From the NCBI GenBank assembly GCA_041641295.1, contig JBEPYO010000001.1, positions 800,001 through 864,000 on the forward strand: 64,000 bases of DNA. Direction: 5' to 3'. The DNA is from Nitrososphaerota archaeon (GTDB taxonomy: Archaea; Thermoproteota; Nitrososphaeria_A; Caldarchaeales; Calditenuaceae). The notes under the pieces are model-generated. The model did not search any database, had not been told where the DNA came from, and was given only the letters and a program-made list of their open reading frames with translations. Both the position numbers and the translations under genes were made by a program. Each line of letters begins with the position of its first letter. Positions within the stretch are counted from its first letter, which is position 1. Shown piece after piece: positions 7,194 through 11,801 of the stretch.

Positions 7194-8819
7194 TTAGTCG
7201 AATTCAGGTGTCTCTGACTCCTTCTTACCCTTCTCTTCCTTCTTCTTGGAGGCTGCGACTACGTCGTCTATTCTGAGGATCATTGCGGCTGCCTCGAAGC
7301 TGGACTTTAGCGCCTGTGCCTTGACCTTGTAGGGCTCAATCACTCCGAGGCTTATCATGTCGTCGACCTTCCCGGTGAACACGTTGATTCCATACTTGTA
7401 GCCAGCATCTACGTGTTTGCTTCTCAGCGAGGACATTATATCGACGGGGTCGAGGCCGGCGTTCTCGGCCAACGTCTTGGGTATCGTCTCTAGTGCGTCG
7501 GCGAAGGCCAGCATGGCGAGCTGCTCCTTTCCAGAATACTTCGAGGCGTTCTCCCTGATGTACTGTGCTAGCTCTGTCTCAACCGCGCCTCCACCTGGGA
7601 CGAATCTATTGTCGTCAACGATCGTTATCATGTTCATTAGCGCGTCGTTTAGTGCCCGCTCAGCCTCGTCCAGCTGACGCTCGAGACCCGCCCTCAAGAG
7701 TATTGAGACGGCCTTCGGGTTCTTGCACCCCTCCACGAAGACCATCCTATCTTCGCCTATCTTCCTCTCCTCAACAAGCGCGGCCTCACCCAAGTCCTTC
7801 GGCGAGAGGTCCTCGAAGTTAGTCACAATCCTCCCACCCGTAGCCTTCTCGAGCTTCTCCATGTCGCTTCTCTTAACGCGCCTCACAGCCAGTATCCCAG
7901 CCTTCGCTAGGAAGAACTGGGCGGCGTCATCGATGCCCTTCTGACAGAAGACGACATTCGCGCCCACTTGGACTACCTTGTCAACCATCTCCTTCAGAAT
8001 CCTAGCCTCCTCGTCGAGGAACTCCTTAATCTTGAGCGGGTCCCTGATCCTGATCTCTGCGGAGAACTCAGTCTTCTCGATCTCGAAGGGTGCATCGATT
8101 ATAGCGATCTTGGCGTTGGTAACGCGCTTGGGCATGCCTGGGTGGACAACCTCCTTATCGATGACGACGCCCTTTATGAGCTGGGACTCGACAATGCTCT
8201 TACCCATCTTCTTCACAATCTGTATGTCATCCTTGTCGGCCCTCCGCTTACCATCATACTCCTTGATGACGCTTAGTACAGCGTCTATCGCTAGATTTGC
8301 TACGTGGTCTGTGCCGAAGCCCAGCGACTTGCTCCCGAGACTGGTGTGGACTATCTTTCTCAGTGTCTCCTTGTCTGTCAGATTGACCTCCGTAGCTATC
8401 TCGCCAAGCCTCTTAAGGGCTAGGTCTAGGGCCTTCTTGTATCCGGCGATGATCGTGCTGGGGTGGATCTTCTGCTCTATTAGCTCCTCGGCCTTAGCGA
8501 GCAGTTCCCCGGCTATGAGAACTGCGCTCGTTGTCCCGTCGCCTACAGACTTGTCCTGAGTCTTCGCTACCTCGATAATCATCTTCGCTGCCGGGTGCTC
8601 AACGTCCATCTTCTCGAGGATTGTTGCGCCGTCGTTTGTGACTATGACGTCGCCGATTGTGTCGACGAGTATCTTGTCCATCCCCTTGGGGCCTAGTGTC
8701 GTCTTAACCATCTCTGCGATTATCCTGGCTGCTGTGATGTTGTTTCTCTGGGCTGACCTGCCCCTCGTCCTCGATGTACCCTCCTTAAGGATTAGAACTG
8801 GCTGACCAGCGAGAGCCAT
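7194..8819 (-). CDS. ths: Thermosome subunit (group II chaperonin)
   Basis: [24 protein letters not shown] and PGGGAVE motifs. Confidence 0.97.
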
Positions 8820-9026
8820 AGCTAATACACCAAGCTCTAATGTCTAGCCCCAAGATTTAAATCTAAACCCCCATTCAAGAATCTAATAACTGGGCGTGTC
8901 CATCTAACCGTTAATAGAAAGTAAATACTCGGATTACTACTGCATATATACAGACATGCCCGATCTGTAGAAGGGAGGTTTAAAGTCCAGAGGAATCAGA
9001 AGATAGGAGGCGGTTCCGCAATAATT

Positions 9027-9038
9027 AAGAAAGAAAAA
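9027..9038 (-). terminator. Putative oligo-U terminator after the structured RNA
   Basis: Minus-strand TTTTTCTTTCTT, 8 nt after the closing stem of the 9047-9212 hairpin. Confidence 0.55.
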
Positions 9039-9046
9039 GGTAAGCT

Positions 9047-9212
9047 GGCTGAGGGCCACACCGGTCAGGACAGCATCTAAGAACCCCCATGAGAGGCCGG
9101 CATGTTAAAGTCTTTGTCATGTATGGTAGCTCTCCACCATACATGTTAAAACATGTATCATACCGGCCTAAGGGTTTTTCCCTGCTGTCCTAGGCCAGCA
9201 TGATCCTCAGCC
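9047..9212 (-). ncRNA. Putative structured RNA: long rod with a BHB motif and a symmetric two-strand internal loop (candidate guide RNA)
   Basis: Nested stems GGCUGAGG/CCUCAGCC, CAUGCUGG/CCGGUGUG, GGACAGCA/UGCUGUCC, GGGA/UCUU, ACCCUUA/UGGGGGU, GGCCGGUAUG/CAUGCCGGCC and CAUGUAUGGUGG/CUACCAUACAUG. The non-Watson-Crick pairs are G-U on the minus strand only. Confidence 0.7.
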
Positions 9213-10087
9213 TCTAGCGGGGTTCTCGTCAGCACCGTTTCTCTGATTCTCTTAATAACCTGAACTTGGTCCTTTGCCTTGATCGTGCTCGTGCCCTTTA
9301 AGGCTATGGTCAGTCTTTGCAGGGCCTGCCGCGGTAGCCTATAGTATATTTTCAGCCTCCCCTTAGCTGGTTTGAAGAGCCCTACATAGTTGTTTATTTT
9401 TTCGATGCCGCGGTTGAAGTCGACGTAGGTCAGAAGTTCTGCTAGAGCCTCTCTCGCTAGCAGATGGTTCTCACCAGCGATCTCTAGAGCCTCAACAACT
9501 TTATTATAGGTTGGTATTCGTCTACCAGCCTCCTCGACTATCCTGGCAGCCATAGCCGCCATTTGCCTCTCCGTGCACCTTATGGCCTCCCTCAGGATTT
9601 CCCTCTCGACACCCTTGTTCAAAGCCCTCATCCCATTCAACAAGCTTTGATGGTTTCTCAGCAGTACTTGGAATGCGCTGATTAGCCTCCGCATCTCGAG
9701 GAAGTCCTCATCAATCTCCCTGAACCATTTCTTCTCTACCCTCATTAAGGCTCTGAGGTCATTCCTAGCAGTCTTAGATAGTCTAAGCTCCTCTCTTTTC
9801 TGCCTCAACATCGTAAGCCTTCTAAGGTGGTAGACTCGTACGCCCCTTCTCAGCACCTCAACGAACTCGTCTGTGAGTTCTATTGGTATGACATCAACGT
9901 AGAGCTCATCACCGGCCTCCGCTGGAATATCGGCGATCTTAGAAGCCTTGCCGAAGGCCTCACCGTCAACAATGTATACATGATAGTTCTCCTCAGTCTT
10001 ATTCTTACGCCTTTTATTGGCCAGTCTGTGAACATCGACGTAGAACCTTCTAACAGCTCTTCCGGGAATCTGCATTATTTCCATCAT
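9158..10087 (-). CDS. Divergent IS110-transposase/TasR-like protein (RuvC-like, coiled coil and Nop-like domains)
   Basis: FYVDVH (D18), LYVD (D65) and KTARND (cf. IS110 KTDxxD); long coiled coil; ALAELLTYVDFNRGIEKINNYVGL (cf. AEIGDxxRFxxxxxLxxYxGL). No PxxxxSG serine loop. Confidence 0.65.
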   Translation of the reverse strand: MMEIMQIPGRAVRRFYVDVHRLANKRRKNKTEENYHVYIVDGEAFGKASKIADIPAEAGDELYVDVIPIELTDEFVEVLRRGVRVYHLRRLTMLRQKREELRLSKTARNDLRALMRVEKKWFREIDEDFLEMRRLISAFQVLLRNHQSLLNGMRALNKGVEREILREAIRCTERQMAAMAARIVEEAGRRIPTYNKVVEALEIAGENHLLAREALAELLTYVDFNRGIEKINNYVGLFKPAKGRLKIYYRLPRQALQRLTIALKGTSTIKAKDQVQVIKRIRETVLTRTPLEAEDHAGLGQQGKTLRPV

Positions 10088-10141
10088 CTATTCATCTCCC
10101 CCGCTATCAACATAGTAACACACCATGTTGTCAGGAAGTAG

Positions 10142-10784
10142 TCGAGAAAAGTCTGGTCAAGGGTTAGCTGTATGCCAGCCCAAGCCATACTAGCAGCAGA
10201 GTGGGAATTGAGGTTATATAGTCTTTTAGACCCCTCAGTGAAAGTAACAACTCCTGTTTCTAGCTTTCGCAATCTTTCTAGACTTCACCATGGCCTTGAG
10301 CAGTTAGTAGTATAAGGGTGATGTCTTAGGTAGAGAGGATACTATCGTTGATAAGGAGTCCAGTATTACAGATGAGAGTGATGTTAAGGGTGTGAGGACG
10401 ATTAAGAGGGGCTTGAGGGTGTTTAAGAGGCCCCAGAGCTGAGATATGAGATAACAGCCGAGTAACAGCCAGCATTAAGACGCTCAAACAGTTGTTTAAT
10501 CGGGACTGTGATAAGGTTGAGGTGATTATATCCCTAACCGTCTATCGATAAGGCCGGGCATGATGACGGGTTCATAAAAGCATCCATACAGGATACAACG
10601 AATACGGGGACATACTGTATATGCTTATAAAGACTTTATCAGACAAGGTGACTGCAAGGGTAGGCTGTGTAAGCGTCATAGAGCCCAGAAGCCGTATGAG
10701 TGGCTCATAGAAACAGCGGCTTATTCAGAGATAGGGGAGATGGGTCATATTTTGGCGCCCAGACTACATGATAACAGCTGGTAA
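10142..10784 (+). pseudogene. Decayed PCNA (sliding clamp)-like gene, copy 1
   Basis: Frameshifted pieces IKTLKQLFNRDCDKVEVII, ILYMLIKTLSDKV, VRLCKRHRAQKPYEWLIE and AYSEIGEMGHILAPRLHD match the copy at 41748-42300. The 5' limit is uncertain. Confidence 0.5.
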
Positions 10785-10946
10785 GAGCCTTAAATAAAAC
10801 AAGTTTTTCTTCTGTATTTTGTCCTTATCTCCCAGTTATTCTCGGCCAGCACCTCCGAGAAGAATTCTCCGCATAACACCTCACCTCTGTCTGTTAGGAC
10901 GCCCATAGGAAATTAAAGTTTAAACATTTGCTATTTTCCAGCAACT

Positions 10947-11801
10947 TTGGATATGGTGCTACTGGGTGCTCATGTCTCGATTTCTGGCTCGATTGCGCTT
11001 TCGGTAGATAGGGCGAGGGAGCTGGGCTGCACGACCTTCCAGATATTCACTAGGAATCCTCGGGGGTGGATTTCTAAGAGGTTGAAGGATGAGGAGATTG
11101 AGGAGTTTGTGCGGAAGAGGAGAGAGGCGGGGTATGAGGTTGTGGTTGCGCACATGCCATATCTCCCCAACATAGCTAGCCCCGAGGCCCTGAGCTGGAG
11201 GCGGTCTGTGAAAAGCCTCGCCGAGGAGCTTCAAAGGTGCGAGATGCTGGGGCTCGACTACCTCGTATGTCATATTGGAAGCCACATGGGTAAGGGTCTT
11301 GAGAAGGGCATCTCACAGGTCGCCAGAGCCGTCAATGAGACAATATCAAAAGTAGAGGCCAAGTGTATGATTCTCTTGGAGAATATGGCTGGCCAGAAGA
11401 ATAGTGTGGGGTCCTATTTCCCACAGATAAGAGCTATCCTCGACAAGGTTGATGATGAGAAGCGGGTGGGTGTGTGTCTCGACACCTGCCACCTATACGC
11501 CGCCGGCTACGACATAGCGGTTGAGGAGGGCCTTGAGAAGACGCTCTCGGATTTCGATGAGAATGTAGGGCTTAAGACGCTTAAGGTCCTACATCTCAAC
11601 GATTCGCGGGGGAAGCTTGGAAGCCATCTGGACAGGCATGAGCACATCGGCCGGGGATATATCGGCGAGGAGGGATTCCGCATCATAGTCAACCACAAGA
11701 GTCTGAGGAACCTGCCCATGATCTTGGAGACTCCTCAGGACGAGTATGGCGGATATGAGGTGGACTTGGAGGTGGTTAGGAGGCTGCTACGTCATGCCTA
11801 G
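10947..11801 (+). CDS. nfo: Endonuclease IV (AP endonuclease)
   Basis: GAHVS, HMPYLPN, LENMAG, CLDTCH, HLNDS, DRHEHIG and ILETP motifs. Confidence 0.95.
   Translation: MDMVLLGAHVSISGSIALSVDRARELGCTTFQIFTRNPRGWISKRLKDEEIEEFVRKRREAGYEVVVAHMPYLPNIASPEALSWRRSVKSLAEELQRCEMLGLDYLVCHIGSHMGKGLEKGISQVARAVNETISKVEAKCMILLENMAGQKNSVGSYFPQIRAILDKVDDEKRVGVCLDTCHLYAAGYDIAVEEGLEKTLSDFDENVGLKTLKVLHLNDSRGKLGSHLDRHEHIGRGYIGEEGFRIIVNHKSLRNLPMILETPQDEYGGYEVDLEVVRRLLRHA

What the first reader, a model, noticed from the sequence alone, without database searches (positions are those of the whole stretch)
9027..10087. Candidate new RNA-guided system: IS110/TasR-like protein with a 3'-overlapping dual-guide-like RNA
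Seen: a 309-aa ORF with acidic residues D18, D65 and D110 in RuvC-like contexts, a coiled coil and an AELL...YVGL segment. Overlapping its last ~18 codons, the minus strand folds into a 166-nt rod (9212 to 9047), followed by a U-tract. The apex holds a symmetric 13x13-nt internal loop whose strands share the frame AUG-A-N7-UUUAA-CAUG: AUACAUGUUUUAA (9158-9146) and ACAAAGACUUUAA (9117-9105). Known: IS110 recombinases, TIGR-Tas proteins and Nop5/box C/D RNPs share a Nop-like domain that reads internal loops with two short guides, and IS110 needs DEDD plus a serine loop. Inference: the third Asp is Ala here (KTARND) and the PxxxxSG loop is absent. There is a single loop rather than a two-loop bridge RNA or a TIGR array. 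This could therefore be a distinct programmable DNA/RNA-binding or nuclease module rather than a standard transposase.
Basis: partly seen in the sequence, partly recalled or inferred. Interest (0 to 1): 0.92.

Follow-up and report, generated by a model that had tools for sequence, protein, structure and literature searches.

The report
Archaeal mobile element carrying its own address RNA
A 2-kb jumping element in a hot-spring archaeon encodes a small TasR/IS110-like protein and a hairpin RNA with two short variable loop strands that spell out the DNA site where that copy sits, so it looks like a compact, naturally reprogrammed RNA-guided insertion system.

Summary
The 309-aa ORF (9158-10087, minus), the 166-nt rod over its last 18 codons (z -8.8), the 13x13 loop and the U-tract are all there.

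The AlphaFold model (pLDDT 87.8) matches TIGR-TasR (Z 15.3) and the IS621/ISCro4 bridge recombinases (Z 13.7-13.9) along its whole length. The third IS110 Asp and the catalytic Ser are missing.

New here: gene and RNA lie in a discrete 1,991-bp insertion (window 8930-10920) that four sibling genomes lack. Each loop strand holds 9 variable nt. One strand repeats the left half of the uninterrupted site; the other is complementary to the right half.

The same rule fits two more insertions with empty sites (16/16 exact in one) and 5 of 5 copies in genome G012. There the guide columns differ 42% against 10.6% for the rest of the element.

The family is patchy, multicopy and small (226 clusters). 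A 2012 paper noted such an insertion in Caldiarchaeum as a putative transposable element, without RNA or homology. An earlier scan note (e1-3748840) touches a look-alike in another genome.

Most likely this is an RNA-guided, self-addressed mobile element. Its chemistry (cutting plus repair, or strand exchange) is open. No RNA data exist.

The parts
8930..10920 (-). The whole mobile insertion (1,991 bp), absent from the same thermosome/endonuclease IV intergenic site in four sibling genomes. It has no terminal inverted repeats.
   Evidence: L048 (G034), L047 (G029), L046 (G035) and L049 (G032) join window ~8929 directly to ~10921. One search finds no terminal inverted repeats.
9158..10087 (-). 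Gene for the 309-aa TasR/IS110-fold protein: an RuvC-like N-domain (D18, D60, D65, D110), a coiled coil (127-190) and a Nop-like helical C-domain. It has no catalytic Ser.
   Evidence: No Pfam family at E<=10.
9047..9212 (-). The 166-nt rod-shaped guide RNA (predicted), overlapping the last 18 codons of the gene.
   Evidence: z -8.8; all 5 paralogues; covariation; 217 G-U cells against 89 A-C cells, as expected for RNA of this strand.
9148..9156 (-). Guide segment 1 (ACAUGUUUU), between AUGAU (9161-9157) and AACA (9147-9144). It has the same sense as the left half of the empty site.
   Evidence: The empty site in G034, read in gene sense, is CACATGTTTAAGTCTTTAC.
9107..9115 (-). Guide segment 2 (AAAGACUUU), between AUGAC (9120-9116) and AACA (9106-9103). 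It is complementary to the right half of the empty site (TAAGTCTTT, 8 of 9).
9121..9143 (-). Apical stem-loop that separates the two guide strands.
   Evidence: Ten of the 12 pairs of this helix show changes on both sides (helix 5).
9075..9082 (-). 3' strand (UCUUAGAU) of the most conserved internal loop of the rod. Its partner strand is GGGAAAAA at 9175-9182. It may be a protein-binding motif with G-A pairs; this is untested.
   Evidence: Conservation in alignment A4. The motif reading is inference.
9027..9040 (-). U-rich tract after the rod (CCUUUUUCUUUCUU), the likely transcript end. The conserved tail CCAGCCAAMCCCUCCCCUAUUUUUUCC is seen in relatives.
10921..10929 (-). Left half-site in the flank (AAATGTTTA in this genome; ACATGTTTA in sibling G034).
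8921..8929 (-). Right half-site in the flank (AGTATTTAC in this genome; AGTCTTTAC in the siblings).
10180..10306 (-). Proximal upstream stretch, conserved with paralogue P3 and a G034 copy. It is the likely promoter or leader and is not detectably structured.
   Evidence: Folding of 10088-10320 gives z -0.38.

Best explanation
Window 8930-10920 is one copy of a mobile element of Caldarchaeales archaea. It carries a gene for a 309-aa TasR/IS110-fold protein and, overlapping the gene's 3' end, a long hairpin RNA.

Shown: each strand of the inner loop of the hairpin carries 9 hypervariable nucleotides between box-like motifs (AUGAY ... RACR). One strand has the sequence of the top strand of the left half of the insertion site. 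The other is complementary to the top strand of the right half. The two readings overlap on a central A/T-rich dinucleotide, giving a site of about 16 bp, and the element sits in the middle of that site.

Inferred: the RNA is cut from, or ends, the mRNA at the U-tract. A coiled-coil dimer of the protein binds the pseudo-symmetric loop, and the two guide strands pair with opposite DNA strands, as in TIGR-TasR and in each loop of an IS110 bridge RNA. The RuvC-like centre (D18, D65, D110, perhaps D60) acts at the middle of the site.

My best guess for the chemistry is hydrolytic, slightly staggered cutting of the unoccupied site, followed by copying or capture of the element through host repair. 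This would be homing-like: the occupied site is split and therefore immune. New sites would be colonised after the guide segments change.
For: Fold: TasR Z 15.3, IS621/ISCro4 Z 13.7-13.9, TasH Z 12-13; the next unrelated match is Z 7.6-8.1.

RNA: the rod occurs in all 5 paralogues and in 39 distinct copies. Covariation reaches values that 0 of 500 shuffles match. G-U cells outnumber A-C cells 217 to 89.

Mobility: 31 of 76 genomes of the order have the family. G033 and G007 each give 30 matches (the number scored), G034 gives 21 and G029 gives 16. Many are fragments or lie at contig ends.

Empty sites for three insertions:
- P1: guide-predicted TACATGTTT+AAGTCTTTG against the G034 site CACATGTTTAAGTCTTTAC, 16 of 18.
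- L039 in G012: CAGGGTTAA and AAATAATGC overlapping by AA, against the G013/G011 site CAGGGTTAAATAATGC, 16 of 16.
- P3: loops CCCGACUAAUUA and CGAGGAUUAAUA against GCCGACTAATTAATCCTCAAC.

Copies in G012: 5 of 5 have both 9-mers in the right order and orientation, and 9 of the 10 half-sites are perfect. Only 2 of 20 non-own guide/locus pairs do so at up to 1 mismatch.

Wider set: 15 of 25 parsed copies have an exact match of at least 9 nt to the reverse complement of a loop strand downstream, against 38 of 598 (6.4%) non-own pairs.

Guide columns differ at 76 of 180 positions (42%) against 1,366 of 12,924 (10.6%) in the rest of the element. For the closest pair the figures are 7 of 18 against 3.2%.

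The own genome holds no intact P1 target.

In favour of a nuclease over a recombinase: no Ser and no donor loop, and the insert ends are not conserved, with variable inner segments.
Against: No RNA run holds the locus, so transcription, RNA ends and RNP formation are unshown.

The left half-site was found clearly in only some copies outside G012. In 10 of 25 parsed copies no downstream match of at least 9 nt was found.

Subfamily B (paralogues P4 and P5) did not give both half-sites.

A 2-bp (P3) or 4-bp (L039) duplication at the junctions is not what pure homologous-repair homing predicts. P1 shows only 1 nt.

How an element without conserved ends reaches a new site, and how its guides change, is unexplained.

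The third RuvC acid of IS110 is missing, so catalytic competence is inferred only from conserved D18, D60, D65 and D110.

This genome's own P1 flanks match the guides less well than the siblings' empty sites do.
Confidence: 0.72

Rival explanations
1. It is a bridge-type RNA-guided recombinase, an IS110 derivative. The same single-loop RNA would synapse DNA partners, and the protein would exchange strands at the central dinucleotide with another nucleophile, for example the conserved Y248. The element would excise as a circle and reinsert.
For: The model aligns along its whole length with IS621/ISCro4 (255-258 residues, Z 13.7-13.9). Four of 23 distant members give faint PF01548 hits. hhalign against IS110 gives E 1.6e-4 with the KTxxxD motif in register. 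A central dinucleotide is read by both guides and duplicated at the junctions (AA in P3, within TTAA in L039), like the IS110 core. There are many copies at unrelated loci within one genome. Y248, R253 and R258 are at least 90% conserved.
Against: The catalytic Ser and its hairpin are deleted, and the third Asp is not conserved. There is no second (donor) loop in the rod and no structured RNA in the leader. The insert ends are not conserved and do not resemble the guides. The duplication length varies from 1 to 4 nt.
Confidence: 0.2
2. It is a domesticated TIGR-Tas-like DNA binder or nuclease with one guide, acting in defence or gene regulation. On this view the element only seems mobile.
For: TasR is the best structural match. 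Inactive-RuvC Tas repressors are reported (passages of 10.64898/2026.09.09.750476). The P1 half-sites lie in a promoter region between two housekeeping genes.
Against: Presence/absence polymorphism has exact boundaries at the guide-matching half-sites in three cases. The family is patchy and multicopy and includes many decayed copies. The guides match each copy's own flanks rather than foreign DNA.
Confidence: 0.04
3. The rod acts as DNA, for example as an attachment site or cruciform of an integrase-type element, and the loop/flank identity is att-like homology rather than an RNA guide.
For: Covariation cannot tell RNA from single-stranded DNA. Sugahara et al. 2012 (PMC3293823; abstract, section 6 and passages read) proposed an integrase or plasmid origin for a comparable Caldiarchaeum insertion.
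Against: The two half-sites lie on opposite arms in inverted sense, which no contiguous att core would give. G-U cells outnumber A-C cells 217 to 89 on the gene-sense strand. The protein has the fold of RNA-guided enzymes whose Nop-like domain reads such loops. No integrase family is hit.
Confidence: 0.04

Closest known systems
IS110-family elements with bridge RNA (IS621, ISCro4; PDB 8wt6, 8wt9, 9t56)
   Same: RuvC-like domain, coiled coil and helical RNA-binding domain in the same order. The RNA is encoded in cis. An internal loop has two strands that read opposite DNA strands on either side of a central core dinucleotide. The element is mobile.
   Different: No catalytic Ser or its hairpin, and the third DEDD acid is lost. 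There is one loop instead of a target loop plus a donor loop. The ends are not conserved. Pfam PF01548 and PF02371 are not met. The guide segments differ between sister copies.
TIGR-TasR (Faure et al. 2025, PMC12045711; PDB 9mty)
   Same: It is the best structural match. The size is about 300 aa, with RuvC plus coiled coil plus Nop-like domain and no Tnp domain. Two 9-nt (or 8-nt) spacers pair with opposite strands of adjacent half-sites without a PAM. Stem-loop guide units are known.
   Different: There is one unit inside a 166-nt rod that overlaps the gene, instead of tandem arrays. The box motifs are AUGAY/RACR, not CCA/UG. The half-sites overlap by 2 bp, where TasR makes a break with 8-nt overhangs. 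The guide addresses the element's own insertion site. The host is an archaeal chromosome rather than a phage or a CPR bacterium.
Insertion sequence 'a+b' of Ca. Caldiarchaeum subterraneum (Sugahara et al. 2012, PMC3293823)
   Same: Probably the same family. It is a 1,868-bp insertion with an 813-bp ORF (270 aa), present in 6-7 copies and next to or inside tRNA genes. A 270-aa Caldiarchaeum protein (P0068) is 48% identical to the query.
   Different: The paper calls the ORF a putative DNA recombinase on the basis of SVMProt and proposes a pNOB8-plasmid origin. The words 'hairpin' and 'inverted repeat' do not occur in the paper, and the passages read mention no guide logic and no homology to IS110 or Tas.
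OMEGA systems (TnpB/IscB with omega RNA)
   Same: The guide RNA overlaps the 3' end of the nuclease gene inside a mobile element. The proposed role is to cut the vacant site so that the element is retained or copied (abstract of PMC10690162, search listing).
   Different: The fold is unrelated (Cas12/Cas9-type RuvC). Those systems use a single guide that lies outside the transposon end, and a separate transposase does the moving.
Archaeal box C/D sRNP (Nop5; PDB 1nt2)
   Same: Coiled-coil dimer and Nop domain, with a pseudo-symmetric RNA that has two guides between box motifs. The weak fold match (Z 7.1, 137 residues) lies on the same region.
   Different: It targets RNA for methylation with fibrillarin and L7Ae. 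No k-turn was shown here. The similarity is much weaker than to TasR or IS110.

Membership tests
IS110 family recombinase | Pfam DEDD_Tnp_IS110 (PF01548) and Transposase_20 (PF02371) above the cut-off | tested here: not met
   No Pfam family at E<=10 for the query. Four of 23 distant relatives give PF01548 at 14-16 bits against a cut-off of 29.
IS110 family recombinase | Complete DEDD tetrad | tested here: not met
   D18, D65 and D110 are kept. The position of the third acid is A/S/G/H/E.
IS110 family recombinase | Catalytic Ser in the Tnp-domain loop (PxxxxSG) | tested here: not met
   In the hhalign alignment the Ser falls on a Gly or gap beside an 8-residue deletion, and no conserved Ser is seen in 46 sequences. 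The alignment probability is only 51%.
IS110 family recombinase | Bridge RNA with separate target-binding and donor-binding loops | tested here: not met
   There is one variable two-strand loop. The other internal loop is invariant, and the leader is unstructured.
IS110 family recombinase | Overall fold: RuvC-like domain, coiled coil, helical RNA-binding domain | tested here: met
   Z 13.7-13.9 over 255-258 residues.
TIGR-Tas (TasR) | Nop-like domain and coiled coil with an N-terminal RuvC domain, about 300 aa, no Tnp domain | tested here: met
   9mty_B gives Z 15.3, 236 residues, rmsd 3.4. No sequence-level match was found in the PDB profile search.
TIGR-Tas (TasR) | Adjacent tandem array of dual-spacer units (dual-repeat or stem-loop) | tested here: not met
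   Each of the 5 paralogues and 39 distinct copies has a single unit, with no array beside the gene.
TIGR-Tas (TasR) | Box C (CCA) and box D (UG) flanking the spacers | tested here: not met
   The flanks here are AUGAY and RACR or variants. The TIGR motifs are taken from PMC12045711.
TIGR-Tas (TasR) | Two spacers pairing with opposite strands of adjacent half-sites | tested here: met
   This holds at the sequence level only: three empty sites and 5 of 5 G012 copies. The pairing itself was not tested.
Box C/D sRNP Nop5 | Nop domain that binds a k-turn with L7Ae, and an N-domain that binds fibrillarin | tested here: inconclusive
   1nt2_B gives Z 7.1 over 137 residues. The k-turn and the partner proteins were not tested.
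Mobile insertion element | Presence/absence at an otherwise conserved site with sharp boundaries, and several copies | tested here: met
RNA-guided system | The RNA is made and bound, and retargeting follows guide changes | not testable with these tools
   No RNA holder is listed. Natural guide/flank co-variation is the only proxy.

The most novel reading that the evidence does not exclude
This is a third, minimal class of RNA-guided DNA insertion system beside CAST and IS110. A protein of about 300 aa without a serine recombinase domain, plus one pseudo-symmetric dual-guide hairpin, would choose a 16-bp site and insert or copy any DNA lying between the two half-sites. No element-end sequences would be required. 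Nature reprograms it by changing 2 x 7-9 nt. It may also be a living intermediate between TIGR-Tas, IS110 and archaeal box C/D RNPs, and a driver of tRNA gene splitting in archaea.
Probability: 0.3. Interest if true: 0.95.

Novelty: new variant of a known kind. Interest (0 to 1): 0.88.

Why it matters
If the guide logic is functional, this is a very compact system (a 309-aa protein and an RNA of about 166 nt or less) for addressing DNA insertion to a 16-bp site without a PAM.

Natural copies show that the address can be rewritten within an otherwise constant scaffold. The inserted DNA seems to need no fixed ends. Both features are attractive for genome engineering.

It places a TasR/IS110-type RNP in archaeal chromosomes, the domain that also uses box C/D guide RNPs. 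That bears on the proposed common origin of these systems.

It gives a concrete mechanism for the decade-old observation that a mobile element splits tRNA genes in Caldiarchaeum. Some copies carry guides identical to a tRNA anticodon arm.

It also raises a new question: how a guide-addressed element acquires a new address.

Tried and rejected
- Rfam on 8000-11500: nothing near a gathering score. The best match was STnc390 at 21.7 bits against 50.
- Pfam on the protein: nothing.
- PDB sequence-profile search: only coiled-coil noise.
- RNAalifold on the raw MAFFT alignment gave a wrong, short consensus because the GGCCGG motifs repeat. I used the rod of the window copy instead, which biases the percentage paired but not the counts of double changes.
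- A strict regular expression for the loop found only 6 copies, and a motif-plus-energy filter found 3. Both were replaced by an nhmmer profile and a stem-based parse. That parse left 12 of 39 distinct copies unparsed and gave 2 bad parses, which I dropped (L038, L098).
- Paralogue P2: no simple empty site, because the left flank is not syntenic in the siblings.
- L083: the only left 7-mer lies inside a 439-aa ORF and is probably chance.
- Subfamily B (P4, P5): only a possible left half-site for P4.
- Second RNA in the leader: none (z -0.38).
- Terminal inverted repeats: none.
- Sequencing runs: no RNA holder is listed.
- Contigs of four DNA runs show no joint across the element. A part without cover in run X4 says nothing.
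- The 134-aa ORF of the G012 copies and the two small ORFs upstream in the window have no Pfam family. My first impression that the 134-aa ORF is PCNA-like is unsupported.
- Literature searches found no paper linking this family to RNA guides. Supplements were not read.
Full report
**1. Observation**

The minus strand of the window holds a 309-aa ORF at 9158-10087.

The stretch 9020-9230 (minus) folds into one long rod of -97.8 kcal/mol. Dinucleotide shuffles give -59.0 +/- 4.4, so z = -8.8, and 0 of 200 shuffles fold as well. A U-rich tract follows. The neighbours are a thermosome subunit gene (7194-8819, minus) and an endonuclease IV-like gene (10947-11801, plus) (both names are my reading of the translations).

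Pfam gives nothing for the protein even at E<=10. Rfam gives nothing near a gathering score.

**2. A family with a conserved RNA**

The same 1.56-Mb genome has five paralogues at 37-55% identity. Each one has a rod of 160-170 nt over the 3' end of its ORF.

In the order, 31 of 76 genomes have matches. The distribution is patchy: G033 and G007 give 30 scored matches each, G034 gives 21 and G029 gives 16. Many matches are fragments, carry in-frame stops or lie at contig ends.

In the 5.8-billion-protein collection, 152 proteins match. Those that carry a name are all called 'hypothetical protein'. They come from Ca. Caldarchaeum or Nitrososphaerota, with one from Thermofilaceae, and none has a Pfam domain. 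A full HMMER scan of 1.84 billion representatives finds only 226 clusters at E<=0.001, many of them short.

An nhmmer profile of the rod finds 47 sense-strand hits above 60 bits in the loci I held, which are 39 distinct sequences.

I laid the rod of the window copy on 38 aligned copies:
- 80.9% of cells pair, against 31-45% when the partners are slid by 1-3 columns.
- 28 of 59 pairs show changes on both sides.
- 145 cells show double changes, against 41-84 in the slid controls.
- 0 of 500 shuffles reach the observed values.

The structure came from one of the aligned sequences, which favours the percentage paired. The double changes are not affected by that.

G-U cells (217) outnumber A-C cells (89) on the gene-sense strand, as expected for an RNA of that strand. 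The conserved C-terminal 'RLxxPA' of the protein coincides with the 5' arm of the rod, so those codons are under double constraint.

**3. The protein**

The AlphaFold2 model built on 46 sequences is confident (mean pLDDT 87.8, pTM 0.83).

Foldseek ranks TIGR-TasR (9mty), ISCro4 (9t56) and IS621 (8wt6, 8wt9) first, with E from 8e-6 to 1e-4, TM 0.54-0.59 and alignments of 311-327 columns. TasH follows.

VIA-align against 48,161 representative chains, without help from Foldseek, gives:
- TasR: Z 15.3 (236 residues, 3.4 A)
- ISCro4: Z 13.2
- TasH: Z 12.4
- next chain: Z 8.1

The second look gives:
- IS621 and ISCro4: Z 13.7-13.9 over 255-258 residues
- Nop5 (1nt2_B): Z 7.1 over 137 residues
- Nop56/58: about Z 7, on residues 126-293

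The architecture is therefore an RuvC-like domain (strands 14-18, 36-40, 44-48, 61-64 and 84-88), a coiled coil (127-190) and a Nop-like helical domain.

D60, D65, K105 and D110 are invariant, and D18 and H20 are at least 90% conserved.

A profile-profile alignment with 30 canonical IS110 recombinases (A5) is weak but in register: probability 50.9%, E 1.6e-4, 176 columns.
- K105-T-A107-R-N-D110 lies on the IS110 motif K-[ST]-D116-x-x-D119.
- 'YVGLFKPAKG-R' lies on 'YAGLVPSTRSSGR'.
- The IS110 Ser thus faces a Gly or a gap, and 8 residues after it are deleted.

Four of 23 distant family members give faint PF01548 hits, at 14-16 bits against a cut-off of 29. Canonical PF01548 genes are nearly absent from the class, in 2 of 76 genomes.

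In paralogues P4 and P5 the third-acid position is His (KTHENDA, KSHENDA). From memory, this resembles the HxxD of some RuvC nucleases.

**4. The unit is an insertion**

Four sibling genomes of the genus (G034, G029, G035, G032) have the thermosome and endonuclease IV genes directly adjacent. Window ~8929 joins ~10921 in all four. The insertion is 8930-10920, which is 1,991 bp. It has no terminal inverted repeats.

Contigs of three DNA runs that may be the source hold the whole stretch. A fourth run, from another study, has an identical 194-nt contig across the right junction (8776-8969). No contig skips the element.

**5. The loop strands spell the insertion site**

In gene sense, the empty site of G034 reads CACATGTTTAAGTCTTTAC.

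Loop strand 1 (A-UACAUGUUU-UAAC) repeats the left half. The reverse complement of strand 2 (A-CAAAGACUU-UAAC) is AAGTCTTTG, the right half. Together they match 16 of 18 positions, and the element sits between TTTA and AGTC. The alternative register (AUGAY + N9 + AACA), which fits the relatives better, gives ACATGTTTT and AAAGTCTTT with a 2-nt overlap, each matching 8 of 9.

The genome G012 has five copies that are 87-96% identical over 1.3-1.6 kb. Their two 9-nt segments between AUGAC and GACG differ strongly:
- Strand 1: GCAUUAUUU, UCACGAUUU, GCUUGAUUU, AGCUUAUUU, AGAUUAUUU
- Strand 2: CAGGGUUAA, ACGGUAUAA, AACCCAUAA, CUAACCUAA, CAUACUUAA

Over all pairs, the guide columns differ at 76 of 180 positions (42%), against 1,366 of 12,924 (10.6%) elsewhere. 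For the closest pair the figures are 7 of 18 against 3.2%.

For each of the five copies, one 9-mer is found upstream of the gene in sense, and the reverse complement of the other is found downstream of the rod. Nine of the ten half-sites are perfect and one matches 8 of 9. Only 2 of 20 non-own guide/locus pairs do this at up to 1 mismatch. The inserts implied are 1.5-2.45 kb long.

For copy L039 the prediction was checked. G013 and G011 have the uninterrupted site ...TTCAGGGTTAAATAATGCACTGG... This is exactly CAGGGTTAA and AAATAATGC overlapping by AA, a 16 of 16 match. The insertion is 1,979 bp, and TTAA stands at both junctions.

For paralogue P3 of the window's genome, G035, G029 and G032 have ...GCCGACTAATTAATCCTCAAC... 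The P3 loops are CCCGACUAAUUA and CGAGGAUUAAUA. The insertion is 2,024 bp, with AA duplicated at the junctions.

Across 25 copies whose loops I could parse, 15 have an exact match of at least 9 nt to the reverse complement of a loop strand within 1.6 kb downstream. Only 38 of 598 (6.4%) non-own pairs do. These 25 are what remained of 39 distinct copies: 12 could not be parsed and 2 bad parses were dropped. The left side is clear only in some copies; flanks were often short.

Either strand can be the 'left' one, as expected for a pseudo-two-fold RNA.

The last 2-4 nt of the guides are A/T-rich, and the site centres read TTAA, TTTAA or TTAAA.

The window's own genome has no intact P1 site. At up to 2 mismatches there is one unrelated place and the guide DNA itself.

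**6. What is unusual**

The ends of the inserts are not conserved, even between sister copies. The conserved core ends right after the U-tract. Between it and the right half-site lie 30-790 nt of unrelated sequence (117 nt in the window copy). On the left side, copies share different lengths of upstream sequence.

The leader is unstructured (z -0.38), and no second variable loop exists. Nothing resembles a donor-binding loop.

Several copies have a tRNA gene within about 150 nt of the rod. In L012 the right flank is the 5' half of a tRNA-Val(UAC) gene, cut after the anticodon loop. One guide (GCUCUUACG) equals that anticodon arm. An intact tRNA-Val(UAC) with a different arm lies inside the inferred insert.

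**7. Literature**

Faure et al. 2025 (PMC12045711; passages read) describe TIGR-Tas. It has arrays of dual-spacer units, including stem-loop units, with box C 'CCA' and box D 'UG'. Spacers of 9+9 or 8+8 nt pair with opposite strands. TasR makes a break with 8-nt 3' overhangs, and D11A inactivates it. The paper notes structural kinship with IS110 and box C/D RNPs.

Vaysset et al. 2024 (10.1101/2024.06.21.599552; abstract and the first part of the main text) link IS110 and Nop5.

Sugahara et al. 2012 (PMC3293823; abstract, section 6 and passages) found a 1,868-bp insertion in Ca. Caldiarchaeum subterraneum with a 545-bp region 'a' and an 813-bp ORF 'b'. It occurs in 6-7 copies and splits tRNA-Thr(GGU). 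They called 'b' a putative DNA recombinase on the basis of SVMProt and proposed a pNOB8-plasmid origin. The words 'hairpin' and 'inverted repeat' do not occur in the paper. A 270-aa Caldiarchaeum protein (P0068) is in the family, so this is very probably the same element family.

Three full-text searches, plus passages of two 2026 preprints, gave no description of a mobile or single-unit TasR-like system. I did not read supplements.

I did not test it.

**8. Reading**

Shown:
- a mobile insertion;
- a TasR/IS110-fold protein without the IS110 Ser;
- a conserved, covarying rod on the sense strand;
- two hypervariable 9-nt loop segments that match the two halves of each copy's own insertion site on opposite strands, with a shared central dinucleotide.

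Inferred: an RNP in which a coiled-coil dimer holds the loop, and the guides pair with the two DNA strands.

Open: the chemistry, and how new addresses arise.

I favour RuvC-type cutting of the vacant site with repair-mediated copying. The Ser is gone, no donor is recognised, and anything between the half-sites seems to travel.

The short junction duplications and the many ectopic copies keep an IS110-like strand-exchange mechanism alive. One attractive variant is that the two junction half-sites of an inserted copy are recognised by the same RNP, so the flanks rather than the element ends would define the donor.

It is not a member of IS110, because three defining features were tested and not met. 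It is not a member of TIGR-Tas as defined, because it has no array and different boxes. It does work like both.

Noticed in passing
L012 1245-1404 (G004:C2): An intact tRNA-Val(UAC) gene lies between the rod and the inferred right boundary. Just beyond it is a 5' half of another tRNA-Val(UAC), cut after the anticodon loop. One guide of this copy equals that anticodon arm. This suggests that such elements split tRNA genes and may carry a replacement.
   Followed up: partly
L083 3572-3645, L075 3586-3661, L084 2179-2254, L086 3655-3728, L044 1662-1737: tRNA genes (Val, Val, Thr, Gln, Thr) lie within about 150 nt downstream of the rod in five further copies, on either strand.
   Followed up: partly
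window 10629-10641: Inside the 5' part of the window's element, about 280 nt from its left end, stands a perfect copy of the reverse complement of guide 2 (AAAGTCTTT in gene sense). It matches better than the real right flank. It could be chance or a relic of an older junction.
   Followed up: no
L071 reverse strand 1093-1337 (inside the P3 insertion, G000:C1 ~1.03 Mb): A separate 245-bp repeat occurs inside the P3 insert. It is also found at G000:C1:358202-358446 and in G035, G034, G029 and G032 at 73-86% identity. Its nature is unknown.
   Followed up: no
L039 3005-3409 (+) and 3706-4143 (-): A 134-aa ORF is transcribed divergently from the TasR-like gene in the G012 copies (region 'a' of the 2012 paper). 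It ends exactly at the start of the conserved part of the element and has a 52%-identical partial copy nearby. It has no Pfam family. The same 600-bp module precedes a different TasR-like gene in L037.
   Followed up: partly
L002 2477-2553 and matches in G034 (C4:19059-19137, C33:571-649, C24:2727-2803, C1:30841-30914 and others): Many solitary ~75-nt matches cover only the 3' arm and tail of the rod. They may be relics of deleted or truncated copies.
   Followed up: no
L002 633-1113 (G000:C1 ~1.092 Mb): Another repeated segment lies upstream of paralogue P2. It matches G000:C1:886262-886525 and several places in G034 and G035. The left flank of P2 has no counterpart in the sibling genomes.
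   Followed up: no
window 8921-8929 and 10921-10929: The window genome's own half-sites differ from the siblings' empty sites at two guide-matching positions (C to A in each half). The occupied site therefore matches the guides less well than the vacant ones.
   Followed up: no
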